A stretch of DNA of 64,000 nucleotides from an uncultured Chloroflexia bacterium (GCA_963749705.1 CAVVNQ010000003.1:160001-224000); one strand, 5' to 3'; shown: positions 3,337 through 29,549, counted from the stretch's first letter. Made by a program: numbers and translations. Notes: generated by a model not told the origin, from the letters alone.

Positions 3337-4944
3337 TCAGCTGGCGCCGGCCCCGGGCTCCGGGCCGCGGCGGCGGCGGTCGAGGACCAGCGACGGCGGC
3401 ACGGCGATCGCGGTCACGGCACCCGCGACCAGGAAGATGCCGACCATGATCCTGGCCGCCTCGCTGGCCGCCCAGCTCTCGAGCGCCTCGACGACGAGCC
3501 CGTCGTGGAGCGGCCGGTCGCGCAGCGAGGCCGGGATGTACTGGCGGTACGAGTCGGGCGTGGCGTACACCTGGTCGTAGAGGCGATCGATCGTGGTCGA
3601 CCCGTACGCCGTCAGGATCGCGAGACCCACGGCCATCCCGATCATCCGCGCCACAGTCACCGTCGACGACGCCATCCCGTACGCCTCACGCGAGACGGAC
3701 TGGACCGCCGCGGTTGACCGGGGCGTCACGGTCAGCCCGAACCCCGCCCCGAACAGCCCGAGAGCGGCGGCGGTCTGCTCGATGGTGGTGGCCGGGGTCC
3801 ACGCCGACATCACGACCAGCGCCACGATCGATGCGCCGAGGCCGAGCAGGGTGACCAGGCGCAGCGAGAGCACGCGCACGGCGAACCCGGACACGAGCGC
3901 GCCAGCGGCCGTTGCCGCGCCCAGCGCCCCCAGCGCCAGCCGCTGGTCGTCGGCGCCGCCGTACAGCACCCGGTCCACGAACACCGCGCCGCCCACGATC
4001 GCGGTCGCGAATCCATACCCCGTCAGCGCCGAGACCAGTGCCGCGGCCGTGAACGGGGCATGGCGGAACAGCCGCGGGTCGAGGAACGGGTCGCCCGTGC
4101 GCAGCCCGCGCACGATGCTCACGGGTCCGGCAACCGCGGCCACGACGACGAGGATGATCGTCACGATGAACGGGTCGATGGACCCGGGGCCCGGATCGGT
4201 GCGGCTGCCGAGCAGCGTGAGGGCGCCCAGCGCGCCGATCAGGAACGCCGAGAACAGCACCGCACCAACCAGGTCGACCCGTCCGGCGCGGCGCGGCGTC
4301 TCCCAGCCGCTGCTCGCGGCCCACGCGAGGACGACCGCGATGATCCCGATCGGCACGTTGACGTAGAACACCCAGCGCCACGCCGGCGCCAGCGCGTCCG
4401 GGAGCGGCGAGCCGGGCGTCAGGCCGAGTCGCGCCAACGCGGCGTCCGGATGGAAGGCGTCGAGGATGGCCGCGCCGAGGAACGGGCCGGCGGCCATGCC
4501 CAGGAACGTGAGCGCGCCGATGATCCCCAGCGCCCTCGGACGTGCCGGGCCTTCGAACAGGTGCGAGACGGCCGATGTCGCCACCGGGATCAGGGCACCG
4601 CCGCCCGCCGCCTGCACGAGGCGCGCCGCGACCAGCTCCTCCAGCGACTGCGCCCGGCCCGCGAGGGCCGAGCCGATCGTGAACACCACCAGCGCCGCCA
4701 GGAACAGCCGGCGATTGCCCCACAGGTCGGCCAGGCGACCGGCCAGGGGCATGGTCACCACGTACACCAGGAGATAGCCGTTGATGATCCACGACGCCTC
4801 GCGCAGGCGGGTCCAGTCTGCGAGGTCGACAACGATCGCCGGCAGCGCGACCGCCGTGATCATGAGCTCCAGGCCGGCGAGGAACACGCCCGCGCCCAGG
4901 ACGGCAAGGAGAACGAGGGCATCGCGTCGCGGCAACCGGTCCAC
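3337..4944 (-). CDS. DHA2/14-TM MFS transporter
   Basis: Motifs GRLADLWG, RLVQAAGGG and WRWVFYVNVPIG. Start reassigned to GTG 4944; the track ORF is over-extended into arsR. Confidence 0.88.
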   Translation of the reverse strand: MDRLPRRDALVLLAVLGAGVFLAGLELMITAVALPAIVVDLADWTRLREASWIINGYLLVYVVTMPLAGRLADLWGNRRLFLAALVVFTIGSALAGRAQSLEELVAARLVQAAGGGALIPVATSAVSHLFEGPARPRALGIIGALTFLGMAAGPFLGAAILDAFHPDAALARLGLTPGSPLPDALAPAWRWVFYVNVPIGIIAVVLAWAASSGWETPRRAGRVDLVGAVLFSAFLIGALGALTLLGSRTDPGPGSIDPFIVTIILVVVAAVAGPVSIVRGLRTGDPFLDPRLFRHAPFTAAALVSALTGYGFATAIVGGAVFVDRVLYGGADDQRLALGALGAATAAGALVSGFAVRVLSLRLVTLLGLGASIVALVVMSAWTPATTIEQTAAALGLFGAGFGLTVTPRSTAAVQSVSREAYGMASSTVTVARMIGMAVGLAILTAYGSTTIDRLYDQVYATPDSYRQYIPASLRDRPLHDGLVVEALESWAASEAARIMVGIFLVAGAVTAIAVPPSLVLDRRRRGPEPGAGAS

Positions 4945-4971
4945 GGCCCGAGTGTAGGTCGACGACCGGGC

Positions 4972-5000
4972 TTGACACCACGAACCCGCGCCAATAGGAT
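4972..5000 (+). promoter_or_regulatory. Sigma70-type promoter of the arsR-pgsA-ino1 operon
   Basis: TTGACA (4972-4977), 17-nt spacer, TAGGAT (4995-5000). Confidence 0.75.
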
Positions 5001-5014
5001 CAACGTCCATTGAT
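4999..5014. promoter_or_regulatory. Putative ArsR operator
   Basis: Inverted repeat ATCAA-cgtcca-TTGAT overlapping the -10/start region, directly upstream of an ArsR gene. Confidence 0.6.
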
Positions 5015-5076
5015 ATAAATGGTGGTTGATCCGTAGATCGATATCGCCGTGTCGTGTCGTCGGACCATCGCAGCAG

Positions 5077-5454
5077 GTGCCTCAAGACTTGTCGCCATCT
5101 CGCGCACGCATCCGGAGCACGCTCGCATCGGTCGTCGACCAGCCCGATGACCTGCGCGAGCTGCGGCTGTTCCACAAGGTGCTCGCGGACGTCAACCGGC
5201 TGCGGATCGTGCGCAGGCTGGCCATCGGCCCGGCCACGGTGACCCAGCTGATCGACCATGTCGGGCTGTCCCAGCCGCTGGTCTCGTGGCACCTGGGCAA
5301 GCTCCGCGAGGTCGGGCTGGTCACCGCACGGCGCCATGGTCGCGAGACCGTCCACACGATCGAGCCCGAGGCGTTTGCGCGGTTCGCCGACCGACAGGCG
5401 CAGGTCCTGGGGTTCGGCGCGACCGGCGGGGCCACGCCGCGAGCGGTCTCGTGA
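5077..5454 (+). CDS. ArsR/SmtB-family transcriptional regulator
   Basis: LADVNRLRIVRRL..SQPLVSWHLGKLREVGLV. The GTG 5077 start is approximate. Confidence 0.85.
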   Translation: MPQDLSPSRARIRSTLASVVDQPDDLRELRLFHKVLADVNRLRIVRRLAIGPATVTQLIDHVGLSQPLVSWHLGKLREVGLVTARRHGRETVHTIEPEAFARFADRQAQVLGFGATGGATPRAVS

Positions 5455-6161
5455 CGGGCTCGCTGGTCACGCCCGGCCTGCGCTCCCGGGTTCGCGGCCT
5501 GATGGAGCCGATCGCGCTCGGCCTCGGACGTCTGGGCCTCACGCCGAACGCGCTCACGGTCATCGGCTTCCTGATCGCGTGCATCGCGGCGGTCGCGGCG
5601 GCCGCCCAATGGTGGCTCGTGGCCGGGCTCCTGGTCGTGTTCGGCGGCGTGTTCGACCTGTTCGACGGCGCCCTGGCGCGAGCGACCGGCAGGGTGAGCC
5701 GGCTGGGCGCGTTCATGGACTCGACCTTCGACCGGTGGGGGGAGGGCGTCGTCTACGTGGGTGTCGTGGCGGGCTCGCTTGCCGATGATTTCCGCCTCGG
5801 CGCGGTGCTCGCCGCCGCCGCGATGGCTTCCGCGTTCATGGTCAGCTATACCCGGGCCAAGGCCGAGAGCCTCGGTTTCACGCCCGGGACGGGCATGGCC
5901 AACGTGGGCCTCGCGCCGCGCGAGGTCCGGATCGTCATCCTCACGATCGGCCTGGTCCTTGCCGGCATCCAGGGGACCGCCAACCCCCTGCTACGCCTCG
6001 AGACCTATTCGCTCCCCGGCGGCATCGAGATCGCCCTGCCGTGGGCCGGCCAGGTCTGGCTCGCATGGAGCCTCGGCCTGATCGCCATCCTCGCCACCAT
6101 CACGACCATCCAGCGAATCGTCCACACCATCAACCAGGCATCCAAGCAGGAGCAGGAGTAA
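5451..6161 (+). CDS. pgsA: CDP-alcohol phosphatidyltransferase, likely phosphatidylinositol-phosphate synthase
   Basis: [25 protein letters not shown] and [13 protein letters not shown] overlap with arsR; adjacent to ino1. Confidence 0.85.
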
Positions 6162-6168
6162 CAGCAGC

Positions 6169-7386
6169 ATGGAGCAAGAGCGGGTGAGCACGAACGGCAC
6201 CAACGGGGGCACCCCCAAGGCGCGCGGCAAGAAGATCCGGGTCGCCATCGTGGGCGTCGGGAACTGCGCCAGCAGCCTGGTCCAGGGTCGCTACTACTAC
6301 GAGAACGCGAAGGCCGGCGAATTCGTCCCCGGGCTGATGCACGTCCAGCTGGGCGACTACCACATCAGCGATGTCGAGTTCGTCGCCGCGTTCGACGTCG
6401 ACAAGGAGAAGGTCGGCAAGGACATCTCCGAGGCGATCTTCTCGGGCCAGAACAACACCTACAAGTTCATGGACGTTCCGCACATGGGCGTCAAGGTCGA
6501 CCGGGGCATGACCCACGACGGCCTGGGCAAGTACCTGTCGCAGATCATCGAGAAGGCCCCCGGGCCCACGGCGGACGTGGTCGGGATCCTGCGCGATCGC
6601 GAGGTCGACGTCATGGTGTCGTACCTGCCGGTCGGCAGCGAGGAGGCCACCAAGTGGTACGTCGAGCAGGCACTCAAGGCCGGCGTCGCGTTCGTCAACG
6701 CGATCCCCGTGTTCATCGGTCGCGAGCCCTACTGGCAGCGCCGGTTTGCCGAGGAAGGGCTGCCCGTCATCGGCGATGACATCAAGAGCCAGGTCGGCGC
6801 GACGATCACCCACCGGGTGATGACCCGCCTGTTCATGGACCGCGGCGTCCGCCTCGACCGCACGTACCAGCTCAACTTCGGCGGCAACACGGACTTCCTC
6901 AACATGCTCGAGCGCGAGCGCCTCGAGTCCAAGAAGATCAGCAAGACCAACGCGGTCACCTCGATGCTCGACTACGACATGGAGCCGACCGACGTGCACG
7001 TCGGCCCGTCGGACTACGTGCCGTGGCTCAAGGACCGCAAGTACTGCCACATCGTCATGGAGGGCACGACGTTCGGCGACGTGCCGCTCAAGGCCGAGCT
7101 CAAGCTCGAGGTGTGGGACAGCCCCAACAGCGCGGGCGTCATCATCGACGCCATCCGCTGCGTGCGGATCGGGCTGGACCGGGGCCTCAAGGGCACCCTC
7201 GTGGCTCCCTCGAGCTACTTCATGAAGAGCCCCCCGCTCCAGATCCACGACGACATCGCGTTCAACCGGGTCGAGGCGTTCATCCGGGGCGAGGACAACG
7301 AGACGCTGGTCGGCAACGAGGAGTCGAAGAAGGACTCCAAGGCGCTGGCCGGCCAGGCAAAGGCGAAGGCTGCCGCCAACCGGTGA
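6169..7386 (+). CDS. ino1: myo-inositol-1-phosphate synthase
   Basis: [41 protein letters not shown] and WDSPNSAG. Confidence 0.96.
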
Positions 7387-8465
7387 CCCAGCGCACTCCC
7401 GGGCTCGAGGCGCCCCACCGGCGCCTCGAGCCACCCTCCCGCCTGCTCGAGCGGTCCGCGGTCCTCGGCTACCGGGCCGCGGCCGTCGTCCTTGCGCACG
7501 TGCCGCCGCGGCTGTCGCGAGCGGTGATCGGGACCGCCGTGCAGGCGAGCTACCTCGCCTGGCCCGCCAAGCGGCGGTTCTCCAACACGAACTTCGGGCA
7601 CGTGCTCGGGCTCCCGCCCGGGGATCCGCGCGTGAGGCGGCTCGCGCTGCGGGCATACCGCGAGTACGCGCGCTACATCGTGGAGCTGATGCGGCTCCCG
7701 TCACGCCCCGAGGCCGAGGTCTCAGCGGCCGTCGAGCTGGGCGATATCGAACGCGTCGCCCGGCTGTGGCGCGAGTCCGGACTGCCACTGATCGTGGTCG
7801 CCGGGCACATCGGCAACAACGAGGCGGCGGCCGCAGCCATCGCCGAGCACGGCTACCCGACCAACGTGATCGCCGACGACTCGTCATTCCCGGAGCTGTT
7901 CGACCTGCTGCGGCGACAGCGCGAGTCGTGGGGCGTCAAGCTCATCCCGTGGCGGAACCTGCGCGACCTGTTCGGGGTCCTGCGCCGCAACGAGATCCTG
8001 GCCCTGCTGATCGACTGGGGGTACCGGCCGGACGGGATCCCCGTCCGGATGTTCGATGCCTGGACAACGCTGCCGGCAGGACCGGCGACGCTGGCCGCGA
8101 AGTCGGGCGCCATGATCGTGCCGATCGCCATCCGACGCGACGCTGCGGGTCGCTTCCACATCGAGCTCGACGAGCACTTCACGGTGCCGTCATCGGCCCC
8201 GGCCGACCTGCTCGGTGCGACGCAGCGGATCGCCGACTTCCTCGAGCGTGCGGTGGCCGAGGCCCCCGAGCAGTGGTACAGCTTCAAGCCCGTGTGGCCG
8301 GCCGATCCCGGCGAGGGCCTCGCCCTCGAGGCGCGGGCCGCTGCGATGCGCGCCGACAGGGGCCGGGCTGGCCAAAGCCGAGCCGGTGTCCGGCCCGCCA
8401 CGGCGGGCAAGCCGGACGACACCGTCGGGACCGACGCCCGCGCATTCGAGGCGACGGGGTCGTGA
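7383..8465 (+). CDS. Lipid A/PIM-type acyltransferase (PatA-like), copy 1
   Basis: [16 protein letters not shown] and PEQWY. GTGA overlap with ino1. Confidence 0.8.
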
Positions 8466-9544
8466 TCTCGGCCACGCCGCCCGGCCCGGCCAGTGCCCCC
8501 GGTGGACCGGTGGCGGATGCGCCGGATGCGGCGCGTGGCCTCCGTGGGACCCTGCTGGTCGGCGGAGCGAAGCTGATCTCGCGGCTCCCGGAACGGCCGC
8601 TCGTCGCGGCCGCGGATGCCGCGGGCGAGCTGTGGTACCGCCTGGCGCCGGCGCGCGCCGCGCAGGCGCGGGCGAACCTCGGGCGCGTGTGCGAGGGCCT
8701 GGCCGCATCGAACCGTGGCACCGGTCTCGCCCGGCGCGCGGCCACGGACCCCGACGCACTCGAGCGGCTGGTGCGCGCCGCCTTCCGGCACGCGGCCCGG
8801 TACTACCTCGAGGTTGCGCGCAGCGGCGCCTTCGACCTGGCGCTGGCGCAGGAGCGGATCGAGATCGAGACCCCGGCGGAGGTCAGCGAGGCGCTTGCGA
8901 GCGGACGCCCGATCGTGCTCGTGGGCATGCACTTCGGCTCGATCGAGCTCCCGGTCGTGATCGTGTCCCACCTCGTCGGACACCCGGTCACCGCACCCAT
9001 GGAGTCGGTGTCGGACCCGGGCCTCCAGCGCTGGTTCATCGAGTCGCGGAGCCGCGTGGGCGTGCAAATCGTGCCGATCACCGATGCTCGCCGAACCCTG
9101 CTCCGCGCACTCCGGCGGGGCGAGTCGGTGGGGCTGGTCGCGGACCGGGACCTGACCCACAACGGGTTGCTGGTCCCGCTGTTCGGCCACCCGGCGCCGA
9201 TCCCCGCCGGGCCGGCGCTGCTGGCCGTCGAGGCCGGCGTGCCGGTCTACGCCGGGTCCGCACGCCGGACGGCCGGTGGGAGGGTGATCGGCCGGTTGCT
9301 CGAGGTGCCGGTCCCGCAGACCGGGACCCGGCGCGAGCGCGTGACCGCGCTGACCGCCCGGATCGCAGCCGCGTTCGAGTCGCTGCTGGCGGACAGCCCC
9401 GAGCAGTGGTGGGGCGCCTTCCACCCGATCTGGCCCGATCTCGTTCCAGCCGGCCGATCGGCTGCTGCATCGACCGCGGCTCCGACCGCGGCGCCGGCGA
9501 CGGATCTGCCCGGCGGCGACGCCGCGCCCGAGGCTCGTGCATGA
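8462..9544 (+). CDS. Lipid A/PIM-type acyltransferase (PatA-like), copy 2
   Basis: HFGSIE, VADRDL, IPAGPALLA and PEQWW. GTGA overlap. Confidence 0.8.
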   Translation: MISATPPGPASAPGGPVADAPDAARGLRGTLLVGGAKLISRLPERPLVAAADAAGELWYRLAPARAAQARANLGRVCEGLAASNRGTGLARRAATDPDALERLVRAAFRHAARYYLEVARSGAFDLALAQERIEIETPAEVSEALASGRPIVLVGMHFGSIELPVVIVSHLVGHPVTAPMESVSDPGLQRWFIESRSRVGVQIVPITDARRTLLRALRRGESVGLVADRDLTHNGLLVPLFGHPAPIPAGPALLAVEAGVPVYAGSARRTAGGRVIGRLLEVPVPQTGTRRERVTALTARIAAAFESLLADSPEQWWGAFHPIWPDLVPAGRSAAASTAAPTAAPATDLPGGDAAPEARA

Positions 9545-10416
9545 CCGGCGAGCCGCAGGAGCGCATGGGCCGCGCAGACCTGCACATCCACACGATGGCA
9601 TCCGACGGCACGTCGTCCGTACAGGAGATCCTCGATCACGTGGAGCGCGTCGGGATGCTCGACGTCATCGCGATCGCCGACCACGAGCGGATCGACGCGG
9701 CCCTCGCGGCGCGCCGCATGGCCGAGGACCGGGGCCTGGGCTTCTCGGTCGTCATCGGCGAGGAGATCACGACCCGCGGCGGGCACCTGCTGGCGCTGTA
9801 CCTCGAACGCCGGGTGCCGTCGCTCCGATCGCTCGGATGGACGATCGAGGCCGTCCACGATCAGGGGGGCCTGGCGATCCCCGCCCACCCGCTGGTTCCG
9901 TACCCGCTGTGCGCCCAGGGCTTCGTGCTCCGCCGGCTGCTGGCGAGCGACAATCCGGCCGTACGCCCCGACACCATCGAGACGTTCAACCCCACGGCGC
10001 TCGGCCGCTACCGTCACAGGCGCGTGCTCGAGTTCGCGGCCGAGCTCGGGCTCGCCGAGATCGGCAACAGCGATGCCCACGCGACCGCCGCGGTCGGCTC
10101 GGGCTGGACGTCGTTCCCCGGCCGGACTCCCGACGATGTGCGCGCCGCGATCCTCGCCGGGACCAGCCGGCACCACGGCGACTTCCACGGCACCGCCGGC
10201 CAGCTGGGAACGTTCGGCAGGCAGCTCCGGAAGTACGGGCGCGACGCCCGGGCCGATCTTGGCGGGCGCCTCCGGCGCGACGGGACGGGCCGGGACCACG
10301 GCTATCCGGGTGGCCACCTCCGACCGCCCCGGTACGCGCCCGGCGGAGCGTCGCCCGCGCCCGATCCTGGTGGAGCGTCGTCAACAGCCGAGCCCGGCGA
10401 GGCGTCTCGCAGATGA
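9541..10416 (+). CDS. PHP-domain metallophosphoesterase
   Basis: DLHIHTMASDG, IADHE, GEEIT..GH, AHP and GNSDAH. ATGA overlap. Confidence 0.85.
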   Translation: MTGEPQERMGRADLHIHTMASDGTSSVQEILDHVERVGMLDVIAIADHERIDAALAARRMAEDRGLGFSVVIGEEITTRGGHLLALYLERRVPSLRSLGWTIEAVHDQGGLAIPAHPLVPYPLCAQGFVLRRLLASDNPAVRPDTIETFNPTALGRYRHRRVLEFAAELGLAEIGNSDAHATAAVGSGWTSFPGRTPDDVRAAILAGTSRHHGDFHGTAGQLGTFGRQLRKYGRDARADLGGRLRRDGTGRDHGYPGGHLRPPRYAPGGASPAPDPGGASSTAEPGEASRR

Positions 10417-11642
10417 AGATCGGCCTCGTCTCCCCGTACGTCTACCCGCTGCCGGGCGGCGTCACGCAGCACGTCCGCTACCTCTACGAGAACCTGCGGC
10501 TGCGCGGCCACGACGTCCGGATCCTGACCTCGTCCCACGGCCTCCAGCGCGCATCCGAGGGCGACGTGATCCGGCTGGGCAAGGGGTTCTCGGTTCCCAC
10601 GAACGGGTCGGTCGGCACGATCACGCTGTCGCCCCGGTACATCTCCCAGGTCCGGGCCGTGCTCGAGCGCGAGCGGTTCGACGTGCTCCACTTCCACGAG
10701 CCGTTCGTGCCGTTCCTGTCGCTCGTCCTGCTGCGGGAATCCCACAGCGTGAACGTTGCCACCTTCCACGCCTACGGCGGCTGGTCGCCGGCGTACGAGT
10801 TCGGCAGTCGTGCCCTGCGCGGCTATGCGGAACGGCTCCACGGCCGGATCGCGGTGTCGGCCGCCGCGCGGCACTTCATCGACCGCTACTTCCCCGGCGA
10901 CTACAAGGTGATCCCCAACGGCGTGGACCTGGACCGCTTCCGGCGGGCGGTCCCGCTGGCGCGCTGGCAGGACGGGACCCGGAACATCCTGTTCGTCGGA
11001 CGGTTCGAGCCGCGCAAGGGCGTGCTGGACCTGCTCAAGGCCTACCGGATCCTGCGCAAGACGGGCTGCGAGTGCCGGCTCCTGCTGGTCGGTGGCGGGC
11101 CGCAGGAGCGCGAGGCCCGCCGCTACGTGGCCACGCGCCGGCTGCGCGGGGTGGAGTTCGTCGGTCGCGTCTCGGACGACGAGCGGGACCAGCTGTTCCG
11201 CACGGCCGACGTCTACGTGTCCCCCGCAACCGGCCGCGAATCGTTCGGGATCGTCCTGCTCGAGGCGATGGCGGCCGGGGCGCCGATCGTCGCGTCCGAC
11301 ATCCACGGCTACAAGGGCGTGGTCCGGCGTGGCCGCGAGGCGCTGCTGGTCCCGCCTCGAGCGCCCAAGCAGATCGCGCTGTCGGTCGGTCGCCTGCTGC
11401 GCGATCCGGAGCTCGCCGCCGCCATGTCCGAGGCCGGGATCCAGCGCGCCGAGGAGTTCAGCTGGCCACGGGTGACCGCCAAGGTGGACGACTACTACGG
11501 GTTCGTGATCCGGCGGCTCGACGCCGCCGGCGCCCTGCCCGCGCACTTCTCGGCCGACGTCCCGCCATCGCCGCGGGCGGCTGGGTCGGACCAGGCCGGG
11601 GACGCGAGCGGCACCGCGGACGAGGTTTCGCGCCCCGCCTGA
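10413..11642 (+). CDS. pimA: GT4 glycosyltransferase, PimA-like phosphatidylinositol alpha-mannosyltransferase
   Basis: MKIGLVSPY..PGGV..H, NGSV, HFHEP, ATFH, GRFEPRKG and GRESFGIVLLEAMAAG. Confidence 0.78.
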   Translation: MKIGLVSPYVYPLPGGVTQHVRYLYENLRLRGHDVRILTSSHGLQRASEGDVIRLGKGFSVPTNGSVGTITLSPRYISQVRAVLERERFDVLHFHEPFVPFLSLVLLRESHSVNVATFHAYGGWSPAYEFGSRALRGYAERLHGRIAVSAAARHFIDRYFPGDYKVIPNGVDLDRFRRAVPLARWQDGTRNILFVGRFEPRKGVLDLLKAYRILRKTGCECRLLLVGGGPQEREARRYVATRRLRGVEFVGRVSDDERDQLFRTADVYVSPATGRESFGIVLLEAMAAGAPIVASDIHGYKGVVRRGREALLVPPRAPKQIALSVGRLLRDPELAAAMSEAGIQRAEEFSWPRVTAKVDDYYGFVIRRLDAAGALPAHFSADVPPSPRAAGSDQAGDASGTADEVSRPA

Positions 11643-11673
11643 CCGCACGCTCGCGGGGCGGCGCGGCGCTCGC

Positions 11674-14600: not shown

Positions 14601-17088
14601 CGCGCCCGTTCTCGGTGCCGGTGCCGCCATCGACGACCGCGACCGTGTCCCCGGGCAGCAGCGCGGCGATGGCCTGGCCGCCATCGAACGTGGCCAGGCG
14701 GCGGATCGATCCGTCGAGGGTGGCGATCGGCGTCGGCGAGACCGGCGGTGACGCCGCGTCGAACCCGCCCAGGTCATCGAGCGAGGACACGTCGAGCGCC
14801 AGGACCTGCCCCGCGTCCGTGCCCACCAGCACCTGAAGCCCGTCCGGGTCGAAGGTGACGGCAGATGCGCCGGGCACGGACCAGCGTGCGGCGACCGCGC
14901 GCGTCCGGAGGTCGTAGCCGACGAGCTCGTCGCCCGTGGCCACCCACACCCGGTCGCCGGCGCGATCGCCGGTTGCAAGGAGGTCCGGCCGCATCGGCTC
15001 GATCGCCGCGTCGCGGACCTTGACATCAAGCTGGCTCGTGGCCTCCACGTCATGCCCGGCGAACAGGACGATCCCCGCTGCGATCGCGTACTTCGCGAGG
15101 TGGGGGTGCGTCCATTCGTAGATCGGATGCTCGATCCCGTACCGCCAGTCCTGGAGGAACTCGGCGGCCGTGCGGGCGTGGTAGACCTCGTCGAAGTGCA
15201 TCCGCACCGGCTCCGCGAGCCGGAACATCCGCAGGCCCATGGCCGCCGCCACGATCACGACCAGGATCCAGATGTCGAGGCGATCGAGGCGGCCACGTCC
15301 CTCGCGGGCGAGCTGGTGCGACCGGTCCGGCCGGATCGGTGTCTCGTTGATGCGGGCCCGGAACCACCCGACGATGCCCAGGTCGGACAGCGACGGGCGG
15401 TCGTACCAGGCGGGCAGGCGGCGACGCGGTCGCGCGGAGTCCGGGTCCGCGGCCGGGTCCGGGACCGATCCGCCGACTCCTGATGCGTGCGGCACGGCCG
15501 GTGGCCCCGACGCTGCCGTCGCGACCGAGGCCGGGGCCGGGGGGATCGCGGTCTGGGCCGGAGGGATTGCGGCAGGCCCCGGGGAGGCCGTCGGGTCCGG
15601 TGGCGCGTAGGCGGGCGCACTGTCGCCGATCGAGCCGCGGAGGCGCTCCGCGGCGAGCCGGCGCCTCGCGGCCGGCCGGAGCTGCGCGATGGCCCACACC
15701 AGCACCGCGGTGTGCATCGCCGCGATGATCGCGACCCCCCAGAACGAGCGGACGGCCTCGCCGATGCCCAGCCAGTCGGCGATCCCGGGGTTCCCCGGGT
15801 ACACCGTGGTCAGGACGACGTACATGTTGAGGAACGTCGCCACCCCGGCGATCGCGTAGGCGATCCGCCATCGCCACGAGAACGCGATCAGGATCCCCGC
15901 CAGACCGAACAGCGGGAACAGGTATCGCTCGTGCACGCGGGTGGGCACCGCGAAGAACGCGAGCGCCAGCACCGACACGCCGACCAGGATCGTCAGCCGA
16001 TCCGGGCGCCGTGCGACGATGAACGAGGTGACCAGGATCACCGCCACCAGCAGCAGCGCCCCGACCAGAGCGGCCGGCAGCCCGCCGACCTGCGCCCACG
16101 TGGCGGCGTCGGGGACGGGCGCGTCCGGGATCCACTGCGTCGATCCCGACGATGCGAGGCTGACGCCGTCGACCGGGAACAGCGCCCACGCGTTGTACGC
16201 GTTCACGGTCACGAACGAGTAGGTGGCCGCGGTGCTCAGGACCAGGCGGACCAGCGCCGAATCGACGAACGGGGCGGTGGTGCTGAACGAGACCACCGAC
16301 AGCCCGAACGGCGCCGACACCACCACGGCCGTCAGGAAGCCGGCCACGGCCGTGGTCAGGATCCGGATCGGGCCGGTCGTCCGTCGCTCCCAGGCGGTGC
16401 CGGACGGCTCGGGTGCCGGATCATCACCCCAGCCACCGGACGGCCAGACCGCGCGGCGGATGACGACCAGGGCGAGGATCGGCACGAGGATGCCCAGCTG
16501 GGGCTTGATCAGGGCCGCGACCATGGCGAGGATGGCCGATCGCTCACTGCGGCCCTTCCACAGCTCGCGGATCGCGAGCAGCAGGAACACGGTCCCGAAG
16601 GAGTCCACCTGGCCCCAGATCGTGGAGTCGAACCAGCTGATCGGGTTGAAGATCACGACCGCGGCCGCGATCGTGGCGCGCCGCTCCGTGGTGCCGAGGT
16701 CGAGCGCCATGCGGTACACGACCAGCCCCAGCGCGATGTCGGTCACGATCGCGGGCAGCTTGATCAGGTCGCCGACCCCGCCCGCGACCTGCCCGACCAG
16801 GCCGACCAGCCACAGTGCGTACAGGTATCCGGGGGTGTAATCGGCGAAGAAGCCGCGGTCGTAGAACCCGAACGGTCCCTGCTGGCCGAGGTTCGAGGCC
16901 CAGTAGCGGAACAGCTTCAGGTCGGAGTCGAAGCCCGATCCGCGGAGTCCATCGATGCCGTATGCCATGATCAACCGGAAGACGAGCCCGATCGCCATCA
17001 CGATCAGGATCTGCCGGCCGATACCTCGCCAGGAGGTGTGGGCCGCGAGCATGTTCCGGTCGGGCGCGCCCGAACCCGAACCGGTCAC
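11674..17088 (-). CDS. ~1,800-aa polytopic glycosyltransferase: N-terminal GT-C module plus PMT/GT39 module with an inserted beta-propeller-like region
   Basis: N-terminal DYTPGYLY, KLPAIVTD, WGQVDS, KPQ and PTRVHERY. PMT motifs FDEVYH, THPHLAK, WRLP, SRIAMND, ASKW and YH..L...HP.SSPWW.WPL. AGGAGG precedes GTG 17088. Confidence 0.82.
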   Translation of the reverse strand: MTGSGSGAPDRNMLAAHTSWRGIGRQILIVMAIGLVFRLIMAYGIDGLRGSGFDSDLKLFRYWASNLGQQGPFGFYDRGFFADYTPGYLYALWLVGLVGQVAGGVGDLIKLPAIVTDIALGLVVYRMALDLGTTERRATIAAAVVIFNPISWFDSTIWGQVDSFGTVFLLLAIRELWKGRSERSAILAMVAALIKPQLGILVPILALVVIRRAVWPSGGWGDDPAPEPSGTAWERRTTGPIRILTTAVAGFLTAVVVSAPFGLSVVSFSTTAPFVDSALVRLVLSTAATYSFVTVNAYNAWALFPVDGVSLASSGSTQWIPDAPVPDAATWAQVGGLPAALVGALLLVAVILVTSFIVARRPDRLTILVGVSVLALAFFAVPTRVHERYLFPLFGLAGILIAFSWRWRIAYAIAGVATFLNMYVVLTTVYPGNPGIADWLGIGEAVRSFWGVAIIAAMHTAVLVWAIAQLRPAARRRLAAERLRGSIGDSAPAYAPPDPTASPGPAAIPPAQTAIPPAPASVATAASGPPAVPHASGVGGSVPDPAADPDSARPRRRLPAWYDRPSLSDLGIVGWFRARINETPIRPDRSHQLAREGRGRLDRLDIWILVVIVAAAMGLRMFRLAEPVRMHFDEVYHARTAAEFLQDWRYGIEHPIYEWTHPHLAKYAIAAGIVLFAGHDVEATSQLDVKVRDAAIEPMRPDLLATGDRAGDRVWVATGDELVGYDLRTRAVAARWSVPGASAVTFDPDGLQVLVGTDAGQVLALDVSSLDDLGGFDAASPPVSPTPIATLDGSIRRLATFDGGQAIAALLPGDTVAVVDGGTGTENGRVVLPGAADMLAAGQSDAVVATPVDVTDATAEAATLASILGGDAADYASGLTQLDADTVTLPGTLTPEVRSSLQAAIDGGQLAGIRIDKVPVLAVADTAGVDLVTTRGALAATIALKGPATSVAYVSGVEDGTQLYATSTDAAIGQPQVAIVAMSGDSAKDGPRMTATMQMPGATSRIVYDEAAGLVDALGVAPDGSPTVYVIEPHGKTVFADHRLPFDAAAWVLDSNKDYPTDSHGAILVFSAGGATGALNVDDYAFAWRLPGVILGALSAGLLYLLTRVLFRRREVGVLVGLFAVLDGMFFVQSRIAMNDVYVGFFILAAYLLFAWLWLQPARRRWSFWVAMPAIGVLLGLALASKWVAAYAIGALGILILARSALGRVLLILGMIGLTGVLGWMALAVPTGSEASGNVTFALMMIGLTLAAVAISAYHPIAWSDDEIRLAVGGPPALGILLALSSIALGRADTAIALGPVLVTPISAAFVLVLAGLAAYAMFQLGGRLGFGPMAPVPSTGTVAGIPPASPPAEGWLRLGSGLGLPIVWMLGSLLVIPIVVYVISYLPWAAIEGHQIVTGWPPGHNGQTLLDLTGEMYRYHNNLTAAHPASSPWWAWPLNLKPVWFYQGGFAESTAGSIYDAGNLVIWWLGVPALVFVTYQAFRRRSLALGLIVIGFLCQWVSWARIDRAAFEYHYYTSLPFVVMALAYFVAELWHGASRRTWLLARVAAAVALMGPVILWVLRLPLCTFAGVDSVNEGSAACHGNPGNLVITPAAAAMAVIVLVTLVILVRQLIDLGRPRSDGRPLDGRDLVPLLATAVIGGALLALSRVLPSTEPLLDFPGIVPELIALVIAIPLGLVAIQVVTARDARRFVIGLISAVAIWFVILYPNISALPLPATVVNAYQGLLPTYLYAFQFSVNTIDRSGSISFADPRFVLLLAFIAIAAVVVAYSAWIWRQSLADEPADQAPDRVAGGPAGEPGAT

Positions 17089-17115
17089 GGGGAGCCTCCT
17101 ACACAAGCGTTGAAG

Positions 17116-18612
17116 GTGAAGCGGAGTATAGCCGAGGGTCGCGTCGCGACCCCCCTGCCGGACACCCATGGCCTCAACCCCGCGACGATCGTCGTCGGGG
17201 TGCTCCTCGCGTGCGCCGCACTGGCCCTGTACGGGATCTCGAACCCCGTCCACCTGAACCAGTACAACCACTTCGTGTGGCAGGCGGACGCGTTCCTCCA
17301 CGGGCGTGACTGGTTCCCGTACCCGGTCCCCGACGGCACCGGCCAGCCGGGCAACTGGTACTTCCAGGACGTGTATCCGCTGACCGACGCCAGCGGCGTT
17401 CCCGACGGGCGCGGGCTGCTGCCGTTCCCGCCGCTCCCCGCACTGGTGCTGGTGCCGTTCGTGTGGCTGTTCGGCCTGTTCGCGGACCAGGAGGGCGTCG
17501 GGATCCTGCTGGCCGCGGCCGGGGTCGGGATCGCGTACTGGATGCTGGGCCGGCTGCCGATCCGGCCGTCGGTCCGGATCCTGACCACGATCCTGTTCGC
17601 CACCGGAACGGTCTGGTGGTGGTCGGCGGCCGTCGGCAGCACCTGGTACTTCGCCCATCTCGTCGCGGTCGACATCGCCCTGGTCGCGGTGGGCGTGTCG
17701 CTGGGTGCCGACCGGCTGGCAAGCGTCGAGGATCCATGGGACGAGGCCGACCGCGAGGCCGATCGGCTGGACCTGGAGAACGCGCCGGATCGAGGAGCGC
17801 TCGGCGGGCTGGCCGCGGGGATCTGGCCGCTCGACCGGTCCCAGGTGCTGGCCGGATTCCTGCTCGGCCTGGCTGCCACGGCACGCCTGCCGCTGGTGTT
17901 CGCGGCGCCCTGGCTGATGATGGTCGGGGGAGGCGGCTCGTGGCCCCGTCGCACGGCCTCGGCCGCGGTCGGCGCCGCCGGGCCGGTCGGGGCGCTGCTC
18001 CTGTACACGCTGATCACCACGGGCTCGCTGATCCACCCCGGCTACGACTACCAGTACCAGCTCGAGGCCAACGGCTATCCGACGCTCGGCTACCACCCCG
18101 AGTGGGCCGTCGAGGACATCCGGTACATTCCCCAGAACCTGGGGATCATGTTCGGAGCCCTGCCCGTGGTCGATCCCGACCTCAAGCCCGACACCCTCGG
18201 GTTCGCGGCGCCGCATCCGCTGTGCACGGCCCCGGGGGCGCAGCGCTCGCTGTTCGACCTCGAGTGCCCGCTCGTGCTGCCGATCGACATCGGGACCAGC
18301 ATCGTGCTCAGCGCGCCCGGCCTGTTCCTCGCCCTGTTCGCCGTCAGACGCCGGCCGCTCGCCCGGTTGACGCTCGGCGCCGGGGTCGCGGTGGTCACGA
18401 TCGCGCTGTTCAACCTCGCCCACTTCAGCCAGGGCTGGGTCCAGTGGGGCTACCGCTTCTCGCTGGACTTCATCCCGTTCCTGCTGCCGCTGGTCGCGCT
18501 GGGCGCCGCGCGCCTCGACGGCCGGCCGCGGACGACCGCGGTCGTGCTCGTCGCGGCGGGCGCGGCGATCAACCTGTGGGGCGTCGTCTGGGGCCAGATC
18601 CTTGGCTGGTAG
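17116..18612 (+). CDS. Polytopic membrane protein, probable GT-C glycosyltransferase (start uncertain)
   Basis: QADAFLHGR, PFPPLPAL, WYFAH and GWVQWGYRFSLDF, with many TM segments. Lies among GT genes. Confidence 0.6.
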   Translation: MKRSIAEGRVATPLPDTHGLNPATIVVGVLLACAALALYGISNPVHLNQYNHFVWQADAFLHGRDWFPYPVPDGTGQPGNWYFQDVYPLTDASGVPDGRGLLPFPPLPALVLVPFVWLFGLFADQEGVGILLAAAGVGIAYWMLGRLPIRPSVRILTTILFATGTVWWWSAAVGSTWYFAHLVAVDIALVAVGVSLGADRLASVEDPWDEADREADRLDLENAPDRGALGGLAAGIWPLDRSQVLAGFLLGLAATARLPLVFAAPWLMMVGGGGSWPRRTASAAVGAAGPVGALLLYTLITTGSLIHPGYDYQYQLEANGYPTLGYHPEWAVEDIRYIPQNLGIMFGALPVVDPDLKPDTLGFAAPHPLCTAPGAQRSLFDLECPLVLPIDIGTSIVLSAPGLFLALFAVRRRPLARLTLGAGVAVVTIALFNLAHFSQGWVQWGYRFSLDFIPFLLPLVALGAARLDGRPRTTAVVLVAAGAAINLWGVVWGQILGW

Positions 18613-18664
18613 CCCGCTCGCCGACCGGGTGGCCGGCAGCCGCGCGGCGAGCCGGCTCCGTGCC

Positions 18665-20248
18665 ATGGACGGAACCACCCTGGCCGCCGCGCTGACCGGG
18701 ATCGCGGCCGCGGCCGTCATCCGGACGACGATGCTGCCCACGCTCGGCGCCTGGGATACCGGCGAGGCCCAGGTCGTGCTGCCGACGCTGGGCACGATGC
18801 ATCCGACCGGGTTTCCGGCGTTCGTCGTGCTGGGCTGGCTGTTCTCGATCGTGTTCCGGCCGCTGGGAAGCCCCGCATTCCTCATGAACCTGATGTCGGT
18901 CGTGCTCGTCGGGGCGGCCACCGGCGGCATCGTCCTGGTGGGCCGTCGCCTGGGCGCGCCGCTGGCGATCGCGGTCGCGGTCGGGATCGGATTTGCCCTG
19001 ACGCCCCTGGTGTGGGCCATCGGGACCGCGGTCGACGTGCACGCGCTGCACCTGGCGCTGCTGGTCGCCGTGGTGCTCGGGCTGCTCCGCTGGGCGGCCC
19101 TGGTGGATCGATGGCGAGCGAGCGGGGACGACGCCCGGCTCGGGCGGCGGGCGGATCGCACGATCGTGGTCACCGCGGCGGTGTTCGGCCTCGCGCTCGC
19201 GAATCATGGCCTCGCAGTGCTGCTCATCCCGCCAGTCGGCCTGTACGTCCTCGCCGTCGAGCCACAGGTGCTCCGACGCCCCCGGCTCATCGTCGCGGCC
19301 CTGGGGGCATGCCTGGGCGTCGCTGCGCTGCTCTACCTCGAGCTCCCGCTCCGGGCCGGCATCTTCCGGGCGCCGCTCGTCTACGGCCACCCCGAGACCT
19401 GGAACGGCTTCTGGGAGATCATCATGGCCCGGCAGTTCCAGGCGGACGTCGTCGGCCCGCTGGCCGATCCGCTGGGCAAGGGGAAGGCCCTGCTGGACCT
19501 CGCGTCCGCCCAGTTCGGCCCGCTGCTCGCGCTGATCCCGCTGGGAATCCTGGCAACCGTGATCCGGCGGCCGCGATACGCGCTGCTGTCGGTCACGGCC
19601 ACGGCGATCACCTGCTTCTTCGCCGCCTCCTACGTCAATGCCCGGATCGACCGCTACTACCTGGGGCCGGTGTTCTTCTCCTGGACGTGGCTCGGGATCC
19701 TGGCCGATACGGCCGTGCGGCGCGTGCTCCGGGTCCGCGGCACGGACCGGGTGACGGGACCCGAGCCGGGCGGCGAGGATCTGCCGCCGCTGCCGCTCCC
19801 GGGTCGGCCACGGGCGAGCACGCTGGTCGCCATCGCCGTGGGGATCGCCCTGCTGGTGCCGACGATGGCCGGCCTCTCCACCCGCTGGCACACCCTGGAC
19901 CGGTCGCGCGAGACGTGGGTCGATACGTGGCTGAACCAGGCGTTCGCCGCCCTGGAGCCGAACGCGGTGGTGGTCTCGTGGTGGTCGTACTCGACGCCCC
20001 TGTGGTACGGCCAGCTGGTCGAGGGCCGCCGGCCGGACGTGTGGGTGGTCGATGATCGGACGCGCCTCGACCTGTACCTGGGTGAGGTCGATGACGTGAT
20101 CGACGCCAACCTCGGCCGGCGGCCGGTGTACGTCATGCGCGTGACAGAATCGGACGTGCAGGATCTCGCCAAGCGCTACGCGATCGAGCCCGTCGGTCGC
20201 CCGGGCAACCTGTATCGAGTGACGGGCCGGCAGGAGACCAGCCCGTGA
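18665..20248 (+). CDS. DUF2723 / TMEM260-like GT-C protein (putative protein O-mannosyltransferase)
   Basis: WDTGE..LGTMHPTGFP, VDVHALH, GLALANH and YLELPLRA. Confidence 0.75.
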   Translation: MDGTTLAAALTGIAAAAVIRTTMLPTLGAWDTGEAQVVLPTLGTMHPTGFPAFVVLGWLFSIVFRPLGSPAFLMNLMSVVLVGAATGGIVLVGRRLGAPLAIAVAVGIGFALTPLVWAIGTAVDVHALHLALLVAVVLGLLRWAALVDRWRASGDDARLGRRADRTIVVTAAVFGLALANHGLAVLLIPPVGLYVLAVEPQVLRRPRLIVAALGACLGVAALLYLELPLRAGIFRAPLVYGHPETWNGFWEIIMARQFQADVVGPLADPLGKGKALLDLASAQFGPLLALIPLGILATVIRRPRYALLSVTATAITCFFAASYVNARIDRYYLGPVFFSWTWLGILADTAVRRVLRVRGTDRVTGPEPGGEDLPPLPLPGRPRASTLVAIAVGIALLVPTMAGLSTRWHTLDRSRETWVDTWLNQAFAALEPNAVVVSWWSYSTPLWYGQLVEGRRPDVWVVDDRTRLDLYLGEVDDVIDANLGRRPVYVMRVTESDVQDLAKRYAIEPVGRPGNLYRVTGRQETSP

Positions 20249-21036
20249 CGACGACCAGCGAAGGGACCCCGGCGGCGGCCCCGCACCGGGTGCCCCGCCT
20301 GTCCTACTTCTTCCCGGCCCACAACGAGGAGGCCAACCTCGAGGGGCTGGTCGAGGAGGCGCTCGAGGCGCTGCCGTCGCTCGCCGACGTGTTCGAGATC
20401 ATCGCCGTCGACGACGGGTCGCGAGACGGGACCGGCGAGATCGCGGATCGCCTGGCGGCCGCCCACCCGGACGTCGTGCGCGTCGTCCACCATCCCGTGA
20501 ACCGCGGGTATGGCGGCGCGGTCCGGTCGGGGTTCGAGGCGGCGCGCTACGAGCTGCTCGCGTTCACCGACGGTGATCGCCAGTTCCGGGTCGCCGACCT
20601 GGGGCTGCTCACGTCGCGCCTGACCGAGCCGGACGCGCCCGATGTCGTGGTCGGCTACCGCATCCGGCGGGCGGATCCGCTGATCCGGATCATCTACGCC
20701 CGCAGCTACAAGCTGGCAAACCGGATCTTCTTCGGCCTCCGGGTCCGCGACGTGGACTGCGCCGCCAAGCTGTTCCGGCGAGCGGCGCTCGAGGGGGTCC
20801 GGGTCGAATCCGGCGGCGCCTTCTTCTCGGCCGAGCTGCTGATCAAGGTCATCCTCGAGCGGCGCTCGATCGTCGAGGTCGGCGTCCCGCACTACCCGCG
20901 CACCGCCGGCTCCCCGACGGGCGCCCGACCGTCCGTCATCTGGCGCGCGGTCAAGGACTTCTGGAGCCTGCGGCTGCGGCTGTGGGCGAACCGGGAGCGG
21001 GCGCTGCGCCGGGGCCGCCCGATCCTGGGCGACTGA
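20245..21036 (+). CDS. GT2 polyprenol-phosphate glycosyltransferase (Ppm1/DPM1-like)
   Basis: FPAHNEE, VDDGSRDGT, NRGYGGA, FTDGDRQF and DVDCAAKL. Confidence 0.85.
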   Translation: MTTTSEGTPAAAPHRVPRLSYFFPAHNEEANLEGLVEEALEALPSLADVFEIIAVDDGSRDGTGEIADRLAAAHPDVVRVVHHPVNRGYGGAVRSGFEAARYELLAFTDGDRQFRVADLGLLTSRLTEPDAPDVVVGYRIRRADPLIRIIYARSYKLANRIFFGLRVRDVDCAAKLFRRAALEGVRVESGGAFFSAELLIKVILERRSIVEVGVPHYPRTAGSPTGARPSVIWRAVKDFWSLRLRLWANRERALRRGRPILGD

Positions 21037-24751: not shown

Positions 24752-24830
24752 GAGCAACCCCTCGTTGGGTGTGATGGTGCGCATCGCGGCGCTCGCGTGG
24801 CACGACCGGAGCGCCGGCGGGGGAGTCGGA

Positions 24831-29371: not shown

Positions 29372-29549
29372 TCCTGCGATCGTGATCCTGGCTGCAAGAG
29401 GGGCTTCGATGGGTAACGCCGACCGCGGAGACCTGGTCAAGGAAGGGTCGCCGCACAACCGCGCAACAATCCTGCCGGAGCCGCTGGACTGCAGTGCAGG
29501 CTTCCCCTCGGGAGGTGACCCGCGGCGTCCCGGCGCCTGAGGCTCGGGA

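What the first reader, a model, noticed from the sequence alone, without database searches (positions are those of the whole stretch)
3337..21036. Mycobacterial-style PIM/lipoglycan synthesis, elongation and export locus in an apparently non-actinobacterial genome
Seen: an operon arsR-pgsA-ino1-acyltransferase x2-PHP-pimA with mostly overlapping stop/start junctions. It is flanked by a divergent MFS transporter and by four GT-C modules in three genes plus a Ppm1-like GT2. Known: mycobacteria cluster pgsA-patA-pimA for PIM synthesis and extend PIMs with GT-C enzymes using polyprenol-phosphate-mannose. Inference: one ~18-kb locus covers inositol synthesis, PI formation, acylation, mannosylation, extension and export of an inositol glycolipid in a probable Chloroflexota cell, whose envelope chemistry is poorly known.
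Basis: partly seen in the sequence, partly recalled or inferred. Interest (0 to 1): 0.82.

Follow-up and report, generated by a model that had tools for sequence, protein, structure and literature searches.

The report
Inositol-glycolipid operon beside protein-mannosylation genes
An uncultured Chloroflexota bacterium carries a mycobacteria-like operon that probably makes its main membrane lipids from inositol, mannose and extra fatty acids, while most of the neighbouring membrane glycosyltransferase genes look like a separate protein-glycosylation system rather than a lipoglycan assembly line.

Summary
The genes are real and the host is Chloroflexota (Limnocylindrales-like), not an actinobacterium. 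The core arsR-PIPS-ino1-2×acyltransferase-PHP-GT4 operon is PI/PIM-like. The GT4's best solved relative is PimA (E 7e-58; next 2e-18), and PIP-synthase and PatA catalytic sites are largely kept. Strong GT4 orthologues occur in 219 of 301 phylum genomes, next to the PIP synthase in 45 of 48 distant loci. This PIP synthase is the only CDP-alcohol phosphotransferase match in this genome and in 104 of 121 order genomes. Inositol lipids are therefore probably the bulk phospholipids, not an accessory glycolipid. The 18-kb 'one pathway' reading is weaker. The GT-C block accompanied the operon in 0 of 48 loci outside the class. Two of its four modules belong to protein O-mannosyltransferase families. 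The GT87/ALG6-like + insert + GT39 fusion mirrors the mycobacterial Pmt complex. No PimB'-like gene was found. The MFS resembles Rv1410 but is class-restricted. PHP (PIP phosphatase) and the second acyltransferase (inositol acylation) are untested candidates for steps unassigned in mycobacteria. The scan noted this operon before on other genomes. Nothing is biochemically shown.

The parts
3337..4944 (-). DHA2/14-TMS MFS transporter, Rv1410(P55)-like; possible lipid exporter, link to the pathway unproven
   Evidence: Best PDB hit 8PNL, E 6e-34, against EmrB 3e-23. Close orthologues in 15 of 151 phylum genomes, 13 of them in this class. Beside the operon in 48 of 54 loci.
4972..5000 (+). sigma70-type promoter TTGACA-17-TAGGAT
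   Evidence: 10 of 12 consensus matches; 0.1 sites expected in shuffles.
4999..5030 (+). two tandem 16-bp imperfect palindromes ATCAA-N6-TTGAT / ATAAA-N6-TTGAT overlapping the -10 box; probable ArsR operator (autorepression inferred)
   Evidence: Top enriched 8-mers upstream of arsR. A tandem pattern matched 48 of 80 loci, not all of which reach this far. In G000 only one other single box was found, on one strand scanned.
5077..5454 (+). ArsR/SmtB-family regulator (ORF opens at 5026; GTG 5077 is the likelier start, inferred)
   Evidence: NF033788 72.5 bits, cut-off 55. With the operon in 20 of 48 distant loci.
5451..6161 (+). phosphatidylinositol-phosphate synthase (PgsA1/PIPS type); the only PF01066 match in the genome
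   Evidence: Best PDB hits are PIP synthases. R94, S132, Y133, R152 and R155 equivalents are kept. Single match.
6169..7386 (+). myo-inositol-phosphate synthase Ino1
   Evidence: PF01658; TIGR03450 543 bits, below its cut-off of 638. Single copy.
7383..8465 (+). PatA-like acyltransferase 'a' (His kept; Asp-Trp at PatA Glu200-Arg201); candidate second/inositol acyltransferase
   Evidence: PatA E 5e-18. Separate phylum-wide paralogue group.
8462..9544 (+). PatA-like acyltransferase 'b' (His kept; Asp-Arg-Asp at PatA Glu200-Arg-Asp); likely mannose 6-O-acyltransferase
   Evidence: PatA E 9e-21. 30% identical to paralogue a.
9541..10416 (+). PHP-family metallo-phosphoesterase with a complete metal motif; candidate PIP phosphatase
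   Evidence: PF13263/PF02811. His/Asp/Glu motifs invariant in 88-89 close homologues. In the operon in 14 of 48 distant loci.
10413..11642 (+). PimA-like GT4 (GDP-mannose:PI mannosyltransferase inferred)
   Evidence: PimA E 7e-58, next 2e-18. Profile search 357 bits against 148 for the next family and 116 for PimB'. 7 of 10 critical residues kept.
11674..17052 (-). 1792-aa fusion: GT87/ALG6-like GT-C (aa ~1-470) plus GT39/PMT module with Asp621-Glu622, split by a ~430-aa soluble insert
   Evidence: PF02366 and PF16192 over cut-off. FDEVYH 72/72. Yeast Pmt4/Pmt1 hits. N-module ALG6 Z 27.0, rmsd 3.0, 389 aligned. One frame in 56 of 69 loci.
17110..18612 (+). unclassified GT-C-fold membrane protein (start uncertain)
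   Evidence: No Pfam hit. Model pLDDT 89; ALG12 Z 20.2, ArnT 19.3, AglB 19.1, Pmt 18.3.
18602..20248 (+). TMEM260-like (DUF2723) GT-C; ATG 18665 a likely start
   Evidence: PF11028 65 bits, cut-off 24. Asp and Glu of W-D-T-x-E 58/58.
20245..21036 (+). GT2 polyprenol-phosphate-sugar synthase type; donor sugar undetermined
   Evidence: ArnC E 6e-12, DPM synthase 1e-9. D-x-D motif 61/61. 4-nt overlap with the DUF2723 gene.

Best explanation
Two neighbouring systems that probably share GDP-mannose. (1) The arsR-to-GT4 operon is this cell's head-group pathway for its main anionic membrane lipids. Ino1 makes inositol-3-phosphate. The PIP synthase joins it to CDP-DAG, and a phosphatase (best candidate: the PHP protein) gives PI. 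The PimA-like GT4 adds one mannose from GDP-mannose, and two PatA-like enzymes add one or two further acyl chains. The expected products are PI, PIM1 and Ac1/Ac2PIM1-like lipids. ArsR represses the operon through the tandem palindrome at the promoter. No other CDP-alcohol phosphotransferase is encoded, so these are probably the bulk phospholipids. (2) The GT2 makes a polyprenol-phosphate-sugar, probably mannose. The GT39 fusion and the TMEM260-like enzyme use it to glycosylate exported proteins, and the fused ALG6/GT87-like module either partners the PMT or extends the glycan. Shown: gene identities, motifs, folds, distribution, synteny. Inferred: every catalytic step, donor, acceptor, product and the regulation.
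For: GT4: PimA far ahead of all other solved GT4s. H118, R196, E199, R201 and E274 equivalents 60/60 and R68 54/60 across the fetched set (residue list from PMC9202250). PIPS inositol-phosphate site kept. PatA His126, Tyr83 and Arg164 equivalents kept in both acyltransferases. Phylum: 227 of 301 genomes at E<=1e-30, 219 of them below 1e-60. In 48 distant loci: pgsA 45, ino1 31, patA 31, arsR 20, PHP 14, GT-C/GT2/MFS 0. One PF01066 match in G000, in 104 of 121 order genomes and in 9 of 9 genomes of family f19 (two of these tested rich in dehalogenase genes). G000 has CdsA, PlsY, PlsC-family, GpsA and a ManC-like + PMM-like pair. Its only PLD-family match looks like polyphosphate kinase (recognised by eye). 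PgpA, the known Bacteroides PIP phosphatase family, was found in 0 of 121 phylum genomes (PMC9246714). PMT families and DE motif. GT39 + GT87-like + propeller form a pulled-down complex in M. smegmatis, and a GT87-GT39 fusion is noted in Paenibacillus (bioRxiv 10.64898/2026.07.15.738315). PI is a major lipid of a cultured Chloroflexota member (PMC12453558).
Against: No enzyme or lipid was assayed. In this window three PimA residues listed as critical are replaced (Q18>T, Y62>T, R68>T), and the RKVKK membrane helix reads SQVRA. Q18 and Y62 vary across the phylum. PatA Glu200 is Asp in both paralogues. NCBIfam equivalog cut-offs are not reached for PIPS (114.5/170), PatA (129.5 and 135.5/209) or Ino1 (543/638). 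PHP was matched in only 1 of 9 f19, 0 of 7 f30 and 0 of 3 f25 genomes that have pimA. It also occurs, unlinked, in pimA-less families f9 (17/20) and f13 (15/18). 17 of 121 order genomes have extra PF01066 matches (one strong), a few have cardiolipin-synthase-sized PLD proteins, and sister family f3 has a second, PGP-synthase-scoring enzyme in 15 of 15. G000 is 88% complete. Within family f1 the GT-C block is as tightly linked as the core (71/72), more so than unrelated neighbours (BFN 48/60, sortase-like 37/54). The N-terminal GT-C keeps invariant acidic residues and folds like lipid-glycan extenders.
Confidence: 0.62

Rival explanations
1. One reading: one locus builds PIM1, flips it, extends it with the GT-C enzymes using polyprenol-P-mannose into a lipomannan-like lipoglycan, and exports it by the MFS.
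For: Near-invariant linkage in f1. The PMT gene is within ~5-10 kb and the MFS within ~3 kb in 5 of 6 f3 loci each. N-module fold: ALG6 27.0, ALG3 24.0, GPI-MT-I 21.8, PimE 17.6, with D44, D71, H374 and E375 invariant. GT87 matched 37 of 44 members weakly. MFS closest to an Rv1410 homologue.
Against: 0 of 48 distant loci carry these genes. They lie ~25 kb away in f2, and no MFS orthologue was found in the one f2 genome searched. The region lies just upstream of recF-dnaN-dnaA, where unrelated neighbours are also conserved. Two modules are protein-OMT families. No PimB'-like gene was found. The predicted TM5 region of the MFS has no glutamate for the Rv1410 ion lock, and no LprG-like partner was seen.
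Confidence: 0.2
2. The operon is PI-related, but the GT4 uses another donor or acceptor (another nucleotide sugar, PIP, or an inositol-phosphate head on a non-glycerol backbone), so the products are not PIM-like.
For: Acceptor-side residues Q18, Y62, R68 and N97 differ in this lineage, and D253 varies across the phylum. Thermomicrobium membranes are diol-based (PMC2615216). GpsA was matched in only 1 of 7 other f1 genomes.
Against: Mannose-binding E274/S275/F276/I278 equivalents are kept. The profile gap to every other GT4 is large. A ManC-like gene is present. G000 has PlsY, a PlsC-family gene, GpsA and CdsA.
Confidence: 0.13
3. The PHP gene is a passenger or acts on another substrate (for example inositol-phosphate or glycolipid turnover), and PIP is dephosphorylated by an unlinked enzyme.
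For: Not matched in most f19, f30 and f25 genomes. A second PHP paralogue in G000 lies beside a flippase-like gene. Unrelated neighbours in pimA-less genomes.
Against: Kept inside the operon in 78 of 78 close loci and 14 of 48 distant loci through different gene orders. One locus reads arsR-PHP-pgsA without pimA. No PgpA in 121 genomes.
Confidence: 0.35

Closest known systems
Mycobacterial/corynebacterial early PIM pathway: PgsA1 (PIP synthase), PimA, PatA, PimB'
   Same: PIPS, PatA-like and PimA-like genes are co-transcribed, each has these enzymes as its best solved relative, and most catalytic residues are kept.
   Different: Host is Chloroflexota. Ino1, an ArsR regulator with an operator, a PHP phosphoesterase and a second acyltransferase sit in the operon. 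No PimB'-like gene was found. PIPS is the only CDP-alcohol phosphotransferase in most of the order, whereas mycobacteria also make CL and PE (recalled).
Mycobacterial Pmt complex (GT39 Pmt + GT87-like MSMEG6899/Rv0051 + beta-propeller; bioRxiv 10.64898/2026.07.15.738315)
   Same: A GT39 module with the DE motif, a GT87-like module and a large extracytoplasmic domain occur together.
   Different: Here they form one polypeptide, with the soluble domain inserted inside the GT39 module (its fold was not tested here). The GT87-like module keeps invariant acidic residues, whereas the mycobacterial partner is described as lacking catalytic residues.
Bacteroides thetaiotaomicron inositol-lipid cluster BT_1522-1526 (PMC9246714)
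   Same: MIPS + PIP synthase + a phosphatase are clustered outside Actinobacteria.
   Different: Its phosphatase is PgpA-family, found in 0 of 121 Chloroflexota genomes. It has no mannosyl- or acyltransferase.
Rv1410/P55-LprG lipid export system
   Same: Best solved relative of the MFS. A ~50-residue loop lies before the last helix.
   Different: No LprG-like gene was seen in the locus and no glutamate lies in the predicted TM5 region. The host is not known to have a mycomembrane (general knowledge).
Inositol and inositol-mannoside diol phospholipids of Thermomicrobia (Lagutin et al. 2015, Lipids; recalled, not read)
   Same: As recalled, mono-mannosylated and acyl-mannosylated inositol lipids, matching the predicted products.
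   Different: Diol backbone. As far as I recall no genes were assigned, and I could not link a named Thermomicrobia genome to the operon here.

Membership tests
Early PIM pathway (PgsA1-PatA-PimA) | PIP synthase with the inositol-phosphate site (R94, S132, Y133, R152, R155, R195) | tested here: met
   R195 is read from a weak, non-significant alignment segment. K135>R and R137>K. NCBIfam NF045883 is below cut-off.
Early PIM pathway (PgsA1-PatA-PimA) | GT4 whose closest characterised relative is PimA | tested here: met
   E 7e-58 against 2e-18; 357 against 148 bits. No tree with actinobacterial sequences was built.
Early PIM pathway (PgsA1-PatA-PimA) | All ten PimA residues listed as critical, plus the RKVKK helix | tested here: not met
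   7 of 10 in this window (Q18, Y62, R68 replaced). R68 is kept in 54 of 60 fetched homologues. The helix has fewer basic residues.
Early PIM pathway (PgsA1-PatA-PimA) | PatA His126/Glu200 dyad and mannose-site Tyr83/Arg164 | tested here: met
   His, Tyr and Arg are kept; Glu200 is a conservative Asp in both paralogues. NF005919 cut-off not reached.
Early PIM pathway (PgsA1-PatA-PimA) | PimB' for the second mannose | tested here: inconclusive
   Six other GT4s in G000 scored <=99 bits with the local profile. NCBIfam named one glycogen synthase and none PimB'. The genome is 88% complete and no PimB' query was run.
Early PIM pathway (PgsA1-PatA-PimA) | PI, PIM and AcPIM lipids are made | not testable with these tools
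   Needs lipidomics. PI is reported in Dictyobacter.
PIM/LM elongation GT-C (PimE, MptA/B/C) | PimE/Mpt orthology of a GT-C module | tested here: inconclusive
   PimE ranks 8th (Z 17.6) for the N-module and 19th (Z 11.3) for the 17110-18612 protein. Weak GT87 matches. No PDB sequence hit.
GT39 protein O-mannosyltransferase | PMT and PMT_4TMC domains with the loop-1 DE motif | tested here: met
   (FDEVYH 72/72). NF058602 is far below cut-off (44.5/800).
GT39 protein O-mannosyltransferase | Transfer of mannose to Ser/Thr of proteins | not testable with these tools
   Needs assay or glycoproteomics.
Ppm1 polyprenol-P-mannose synthase | GT2 of the DPM1/Ppm1 subfamily specific for GDP-mannose | tested here: inconclusive
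   ArnC scores above DPM synthase. All NCBIfam models are below cut-off.
Rv1410/P55 lipid exporter | Glu-Arg ion lock, TM11-TM12 extension, LprG partner | tested here: inconclusive
   Best hit 8PNL, but no residue alignment was printed. A long last loop and an Arg in the next-to-last predicted helix are present; no Glu in residues 132-160. No LprG-like neighbour was seen. Features.
PHP metallo-phosphoesterase | HxH, D-H, E, H, H, DxH metal ligands | tested here: met

The most novel reading that the evidence does not exclude
In Limnocylindrales and several other Chloroflexota lineages, including organohalide respirers, inositol lipids are the only CDP-DAG-derived phospholipids. The membrane is then built from PI and mono-mannosyl, multiply acylated PI, made by an operon ancestral to much of the phylum. 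The PHP protein is a new class of PIP phosphatase, acyltransferase 'a' is an inositol acyltransferase, and the catalytically intact ALG6-like module fused to the PMT extends mannose on proteins and possibly on the PI-mannoside as well.
Probability: 0.3. Interest if true: 0.82.

Novelty: new variant of a known kind. Interest (0 to 1): 0.62.

Why it matters
Bacterial inositol lipids are described as comparatively rare and previously thought limited largely to Actinobacteria and Treponema (PMC9246714). A PimA-centred operon in about three quarters of sampled Chloroflexota genomes, often holding the only head-group synthase, would recast the membrane chemistry of a large soil, sediment and freshwater phylum and give it a lipid biomarker. 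It also offers concrete candidates for two steps that the papers read here call unidentified in mycobacteria: the PIP phosphatase (PMC6506517, 2019) and the inositol acyltransferase (PMC9490103, 2022). The latter paper speculates that the mycobacterial enzyme is not PatA-like. The fusion gives Rosetta-stone support for the newly described Pmt complex.

Tried and rejected
Literature: nine searches found no paper describing this operon or PIMs in Chloroflexota. The library lacks most subscription journals, so this is not proof. Automatic JGI names already call homologues 'phosphatidylinositol alpha-mannosyltransferase'. Two papers looked up from memory were not held: Dehalococcoides phospholipids and the ALG6 structure. 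The first may bear against the 'PI-only' reading for f19. PMC5572230, PMC13721041, PMC7203096 and PMC6776052 gave nothing relevant. The bioRxiv supplements (Pmt pull-down table) are closed and could bear on the fusion. Rejected: the 2499-aa ORF as one gene (its 5' part is antisense shadow). Rejected: a hidden second CDP-alcohol phosphotransferase in G000; a profile built from extra matches of relatives and two motif scans found only the operon gene. Rejected: synteny in f1 as proof of one pathway, because of the neighbour controls. A profile search of the N-terminal GT-C against PDB sequences gave 0 hits. The soluble insert had no Pfam hit and was not folded. PHP neighbourhoods in pimA-less genomes showed no lipid genes, apart from another GT4 in 2 loci. 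A PHP alignment failed on a frame slip; motif counts come. RNA runs: contigs from one study include short 99-100% pieces in arsR, acyltransferase a, PHP and the fusion, but these may be DNA and show neither transcription nor level. The acyltransferase tree is the quick tree, without bootstrap or outgroup. No complex prediction was run.

Full report
Observation. The window is ~72% G+C, so genes were picked by codon-position bias, junctions and family hits. The seven-gene + strand operon (5026/5077-11642) has five 4-nt overlaps and one 7-nt gap. It is flanked by the MFS (3337-4944, -), a 1792-aa GT-C fusion (11674-17052, -), an unclassified GT-C, a TMEM260-like GT-C and a GT2 (to 21036). A sigma70-like promoter lies at 4972-5000. 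It overlaps two tandem palindromes at 4999-5030, whose pattern matched 48 of 80 related loci. I read these as the ArsR operator (inference).

Host. The 80 best GT4 loci among species genomes are mostly titled Chloroflexota, Chloroflexia or Ca. Limnocylindrales, and none is titled as an actinobacterium. DnaA is 86-94% identical in 5 of 5 Limnocylindrales-titled genomes. G000 is 88% complete.

Core enzymes. The GT4 hits M. smegmatis PimA at E 7e-58, the next protein at 2e-18 and PimB' at 7e-15. A 22-sequence phylum profile gives 357, 148 and 116 bits. Of ten residues that PMC9202250 lists as critical (section 3.1 read), seven are kept here; Q18, Y62 and R68 are Thr. Across 60 fetched homologues, one of them a weaker paralogue, H118, R196, E199, R201, K202 and E274 are 60/60, R68 54/60 and Y9 56/60, while Q18 and Y62 vary. 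The basic membrane helix is less basic. The phosphotransferase matches PIP synthases best and keeps the inositol-phosphate arginines named in PMC6506517 (passages; conservation). Both acyltransferases match PatA best and keep His126, Tyr83 and Arg164, with Asp for Glu200 (PMC8519569 passages). They are 30% identical. In a quick 80-row tree, all 36 upstream copies (plus 5 singles) lie on one side of a branch with SH-aLRT 95 and all 36 downstream copies (plus 3 singles) on the other. This points to an old split with two roles. NCBIfam equivalog cut-offs for PIPS, PatA and Ino1 are not reached.

Range. In an even sample of 301 phylum genomes, 227 match the GT4 at E<=1e-30; by my count of the rows, 8 of these are weaker than 1e-60. 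Family f9 has 0 of 20 and f13 only 3 weak matches of 18. I fetched 60 loci chosen to span families, favouring long contigs. In the 48 outside the class (the paralogue locus left out), co-oriented neighbours were pgsA 45, ino1 31, patA 31, arsR 20 and PHP 14. PMT, the other GT-Cs, the GT2 and the MFS orthologue were found in 0. These profiles were built from class members and can miss distant GT-Cs; Pfam found one PMT_2-like neighbour among 66 ORFs scanned. Ino1 and a PIPS-like gene were present in 5 of 5 genomes tested, four of which lack a pimA match. Named homologues include Dehalococcoidia, Ktedonobacteraceae and Anaerolineae records. PI is a major lipid of Dictyobacter (PMC12453558 passages). 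I recall mannosylated and acyl-mannosylated inositol diol lipids from Thermomicrobia (Lagutin 2015, not read). PMC2615216 (passages) confirms only the diol membrane.

Sole head-group synthase. PF01066 has one match in G000, the operon gene. A custom profile and motif scans found no second one. In the order, 104 of 121 genomes have one match, 17 have more, and only one extra match is strong. Family f19 has one match in 9 of 9 genomes; two tested members carry 26-27 dehalogenase matches, and three fetched loci read ino1-pimA-pgsA. Sister family f3 has two or more in 15 of 15. G000 has CdsA, PlsY, PlsC-family and GpsA matches and a ManC-like gene beside a phosphohexomutase. Its only PLD-family match looks like polyphosphate kinase. 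A few order genomes do have cardiolipin-synthase-sized PLD proteins, and GpsA matched only 1 of 7 other f1 genomes. The simplest reading is that PI and its derivatives are the bulk phospholipids (inference). No PimB'-like GT4 was recognised among six paralogues, so one mannose is expected.

PHP. All metal ligands are invariant. PMC6506517 calls the mycobacterial PIP phosphatase unidentified. The Bacteroides enzyme is PgpA-family (PMC9246714 passages), which was found in 0 of 121 phylum genomes. For the candidate: it sits in the operon in 78 of 78 close and 14 of 48 distant loci, and one locus reads arsR-PHP-pgsA. Against: it was not matched in most f19, f30 and f25 genomes, and it is present but unlinked in pimA-less families (212 of 301 overall).

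GT-C block. The C-terminal part of the fusion is GT39: PMT and PMT_4TMC are over cut-off, the DE motif is 72/72, and yeast Pmt4/Pmt1 are hit. It is G000's only PMT. It matched 120 of 121 class genomes; two of these, G374 and G352, are unpublished, and without them the count is 118 of 119. The N-terminal module (pLDDT 92) aligns to ALG6 (Z 27.0, rmsd 3.0, 389 residues), ALG3 (24.0), GPI-MT-I (21.8) and PimE (17.6). D44 is invariant and sits at the start of the first loop helix, where PMC12041525 (passages) places the catalytic Asp of PimE and ALG6; the equivalence is my inference. D71, H374 and E375 are also invariant. The modules share one frame in 56 of 69 loci. That favours protein glycosylation, though the partner there is called non-catalytic. 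The third GT-C is ambiguous (ALG12, ArnT, AglB and Pmt within 2 Z). The fourth is TMEM260-like, and the GT2 donor is open. The block is adjacent to pimA in f1, 5-10 kb off in f3 and ~25 kb off in two f2 genomes. The region is near dnaA, and unrelated neighbours are conserved too (BFN 48/60, sortase-like 37/54).

MFS. The best solved relative is an Rv1410 homologue (10.1101/2023.01.25.525346 passages). Close orthologues were found in 15 of 151 phylum genomes, 13 of them in this class. No ion-lock glutamate or LprG partner was seen. Lipid export is possible but unproven.

Verdict. A real, conserved PI/PIM-like operon outside Actinobacteria, probably supplying the bulk membrane lipids, beside a lineage-linked block best read as protein O-glycosylation. 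It works like the early PIM pathway. Strict membership fails on three PimA residues and lacks evidence for PimB' or the products. Earlier scan notes describe the same operon, PHP candidate and fusion in other genomes; they are not independent support. Two word look-ups found no note on the sole-synthase point and one found none on the Rv1410 resemblance. New variant of a known kind; interest 0.62.

Noticed in passing
window 49424-49796 (-): tmRNA, tag peptide ANKQPALALAA.
   Followed up: no
window 25205-29722 (-): recF, dnaN and dnaA: the locus lies close to the probable origin region, which may help keep local gene order.
   Followed up: partly
window 2601-3323 (+) and 1875-2534 (-): A sortase-domain protein and a thioredoxin-like protein with an N-terminal membrane anchor. 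The sortase-domain protein has a Ser/Thr/Pro/Ala-rich linker and is a plausible O-mannosylation substrate.
   Followed up: no
window 22472-25003 (-): 843-aa ORF with coding-like bias, no Pfam or NCBIfam hit, found in 3 of 80 loci within range.
   Followed up: no
window 41-1878: Convergent trehalose-6-phosphate synthase and phosphatase genes.
   Followed up: no
L236:2390-4218 (G000:C3): A second PHP paralogue lies directly upstream of a PF03706 flippase-like gene, next to mreB.
   Followed up: partly
L231:6983-9371 (G000:C5): A stand-alone GT87 gene beside a PIG-L-family deacetylase, near a GT2 and an epimerase; another lipid-glycan locus.
   Followed up: no
G000:C19:25 (L234): A single operator-like box at a contig start upstream of rpsM-rpsK; probably chance.
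   Followed up: partly
L233:5866-5930 (G000:C18): The ManC-like gene's first ~20 codons match in another frame; possible assembly frameshift.
   Followed up: no
L115, L116, L167 (family f19): Minimal ino1-pimA-pgsA cluster without acyltransferase or PHP, between truB/rbfA and purA, in the family whose tested members are dehalogenase-rich.
   Followed up: partly
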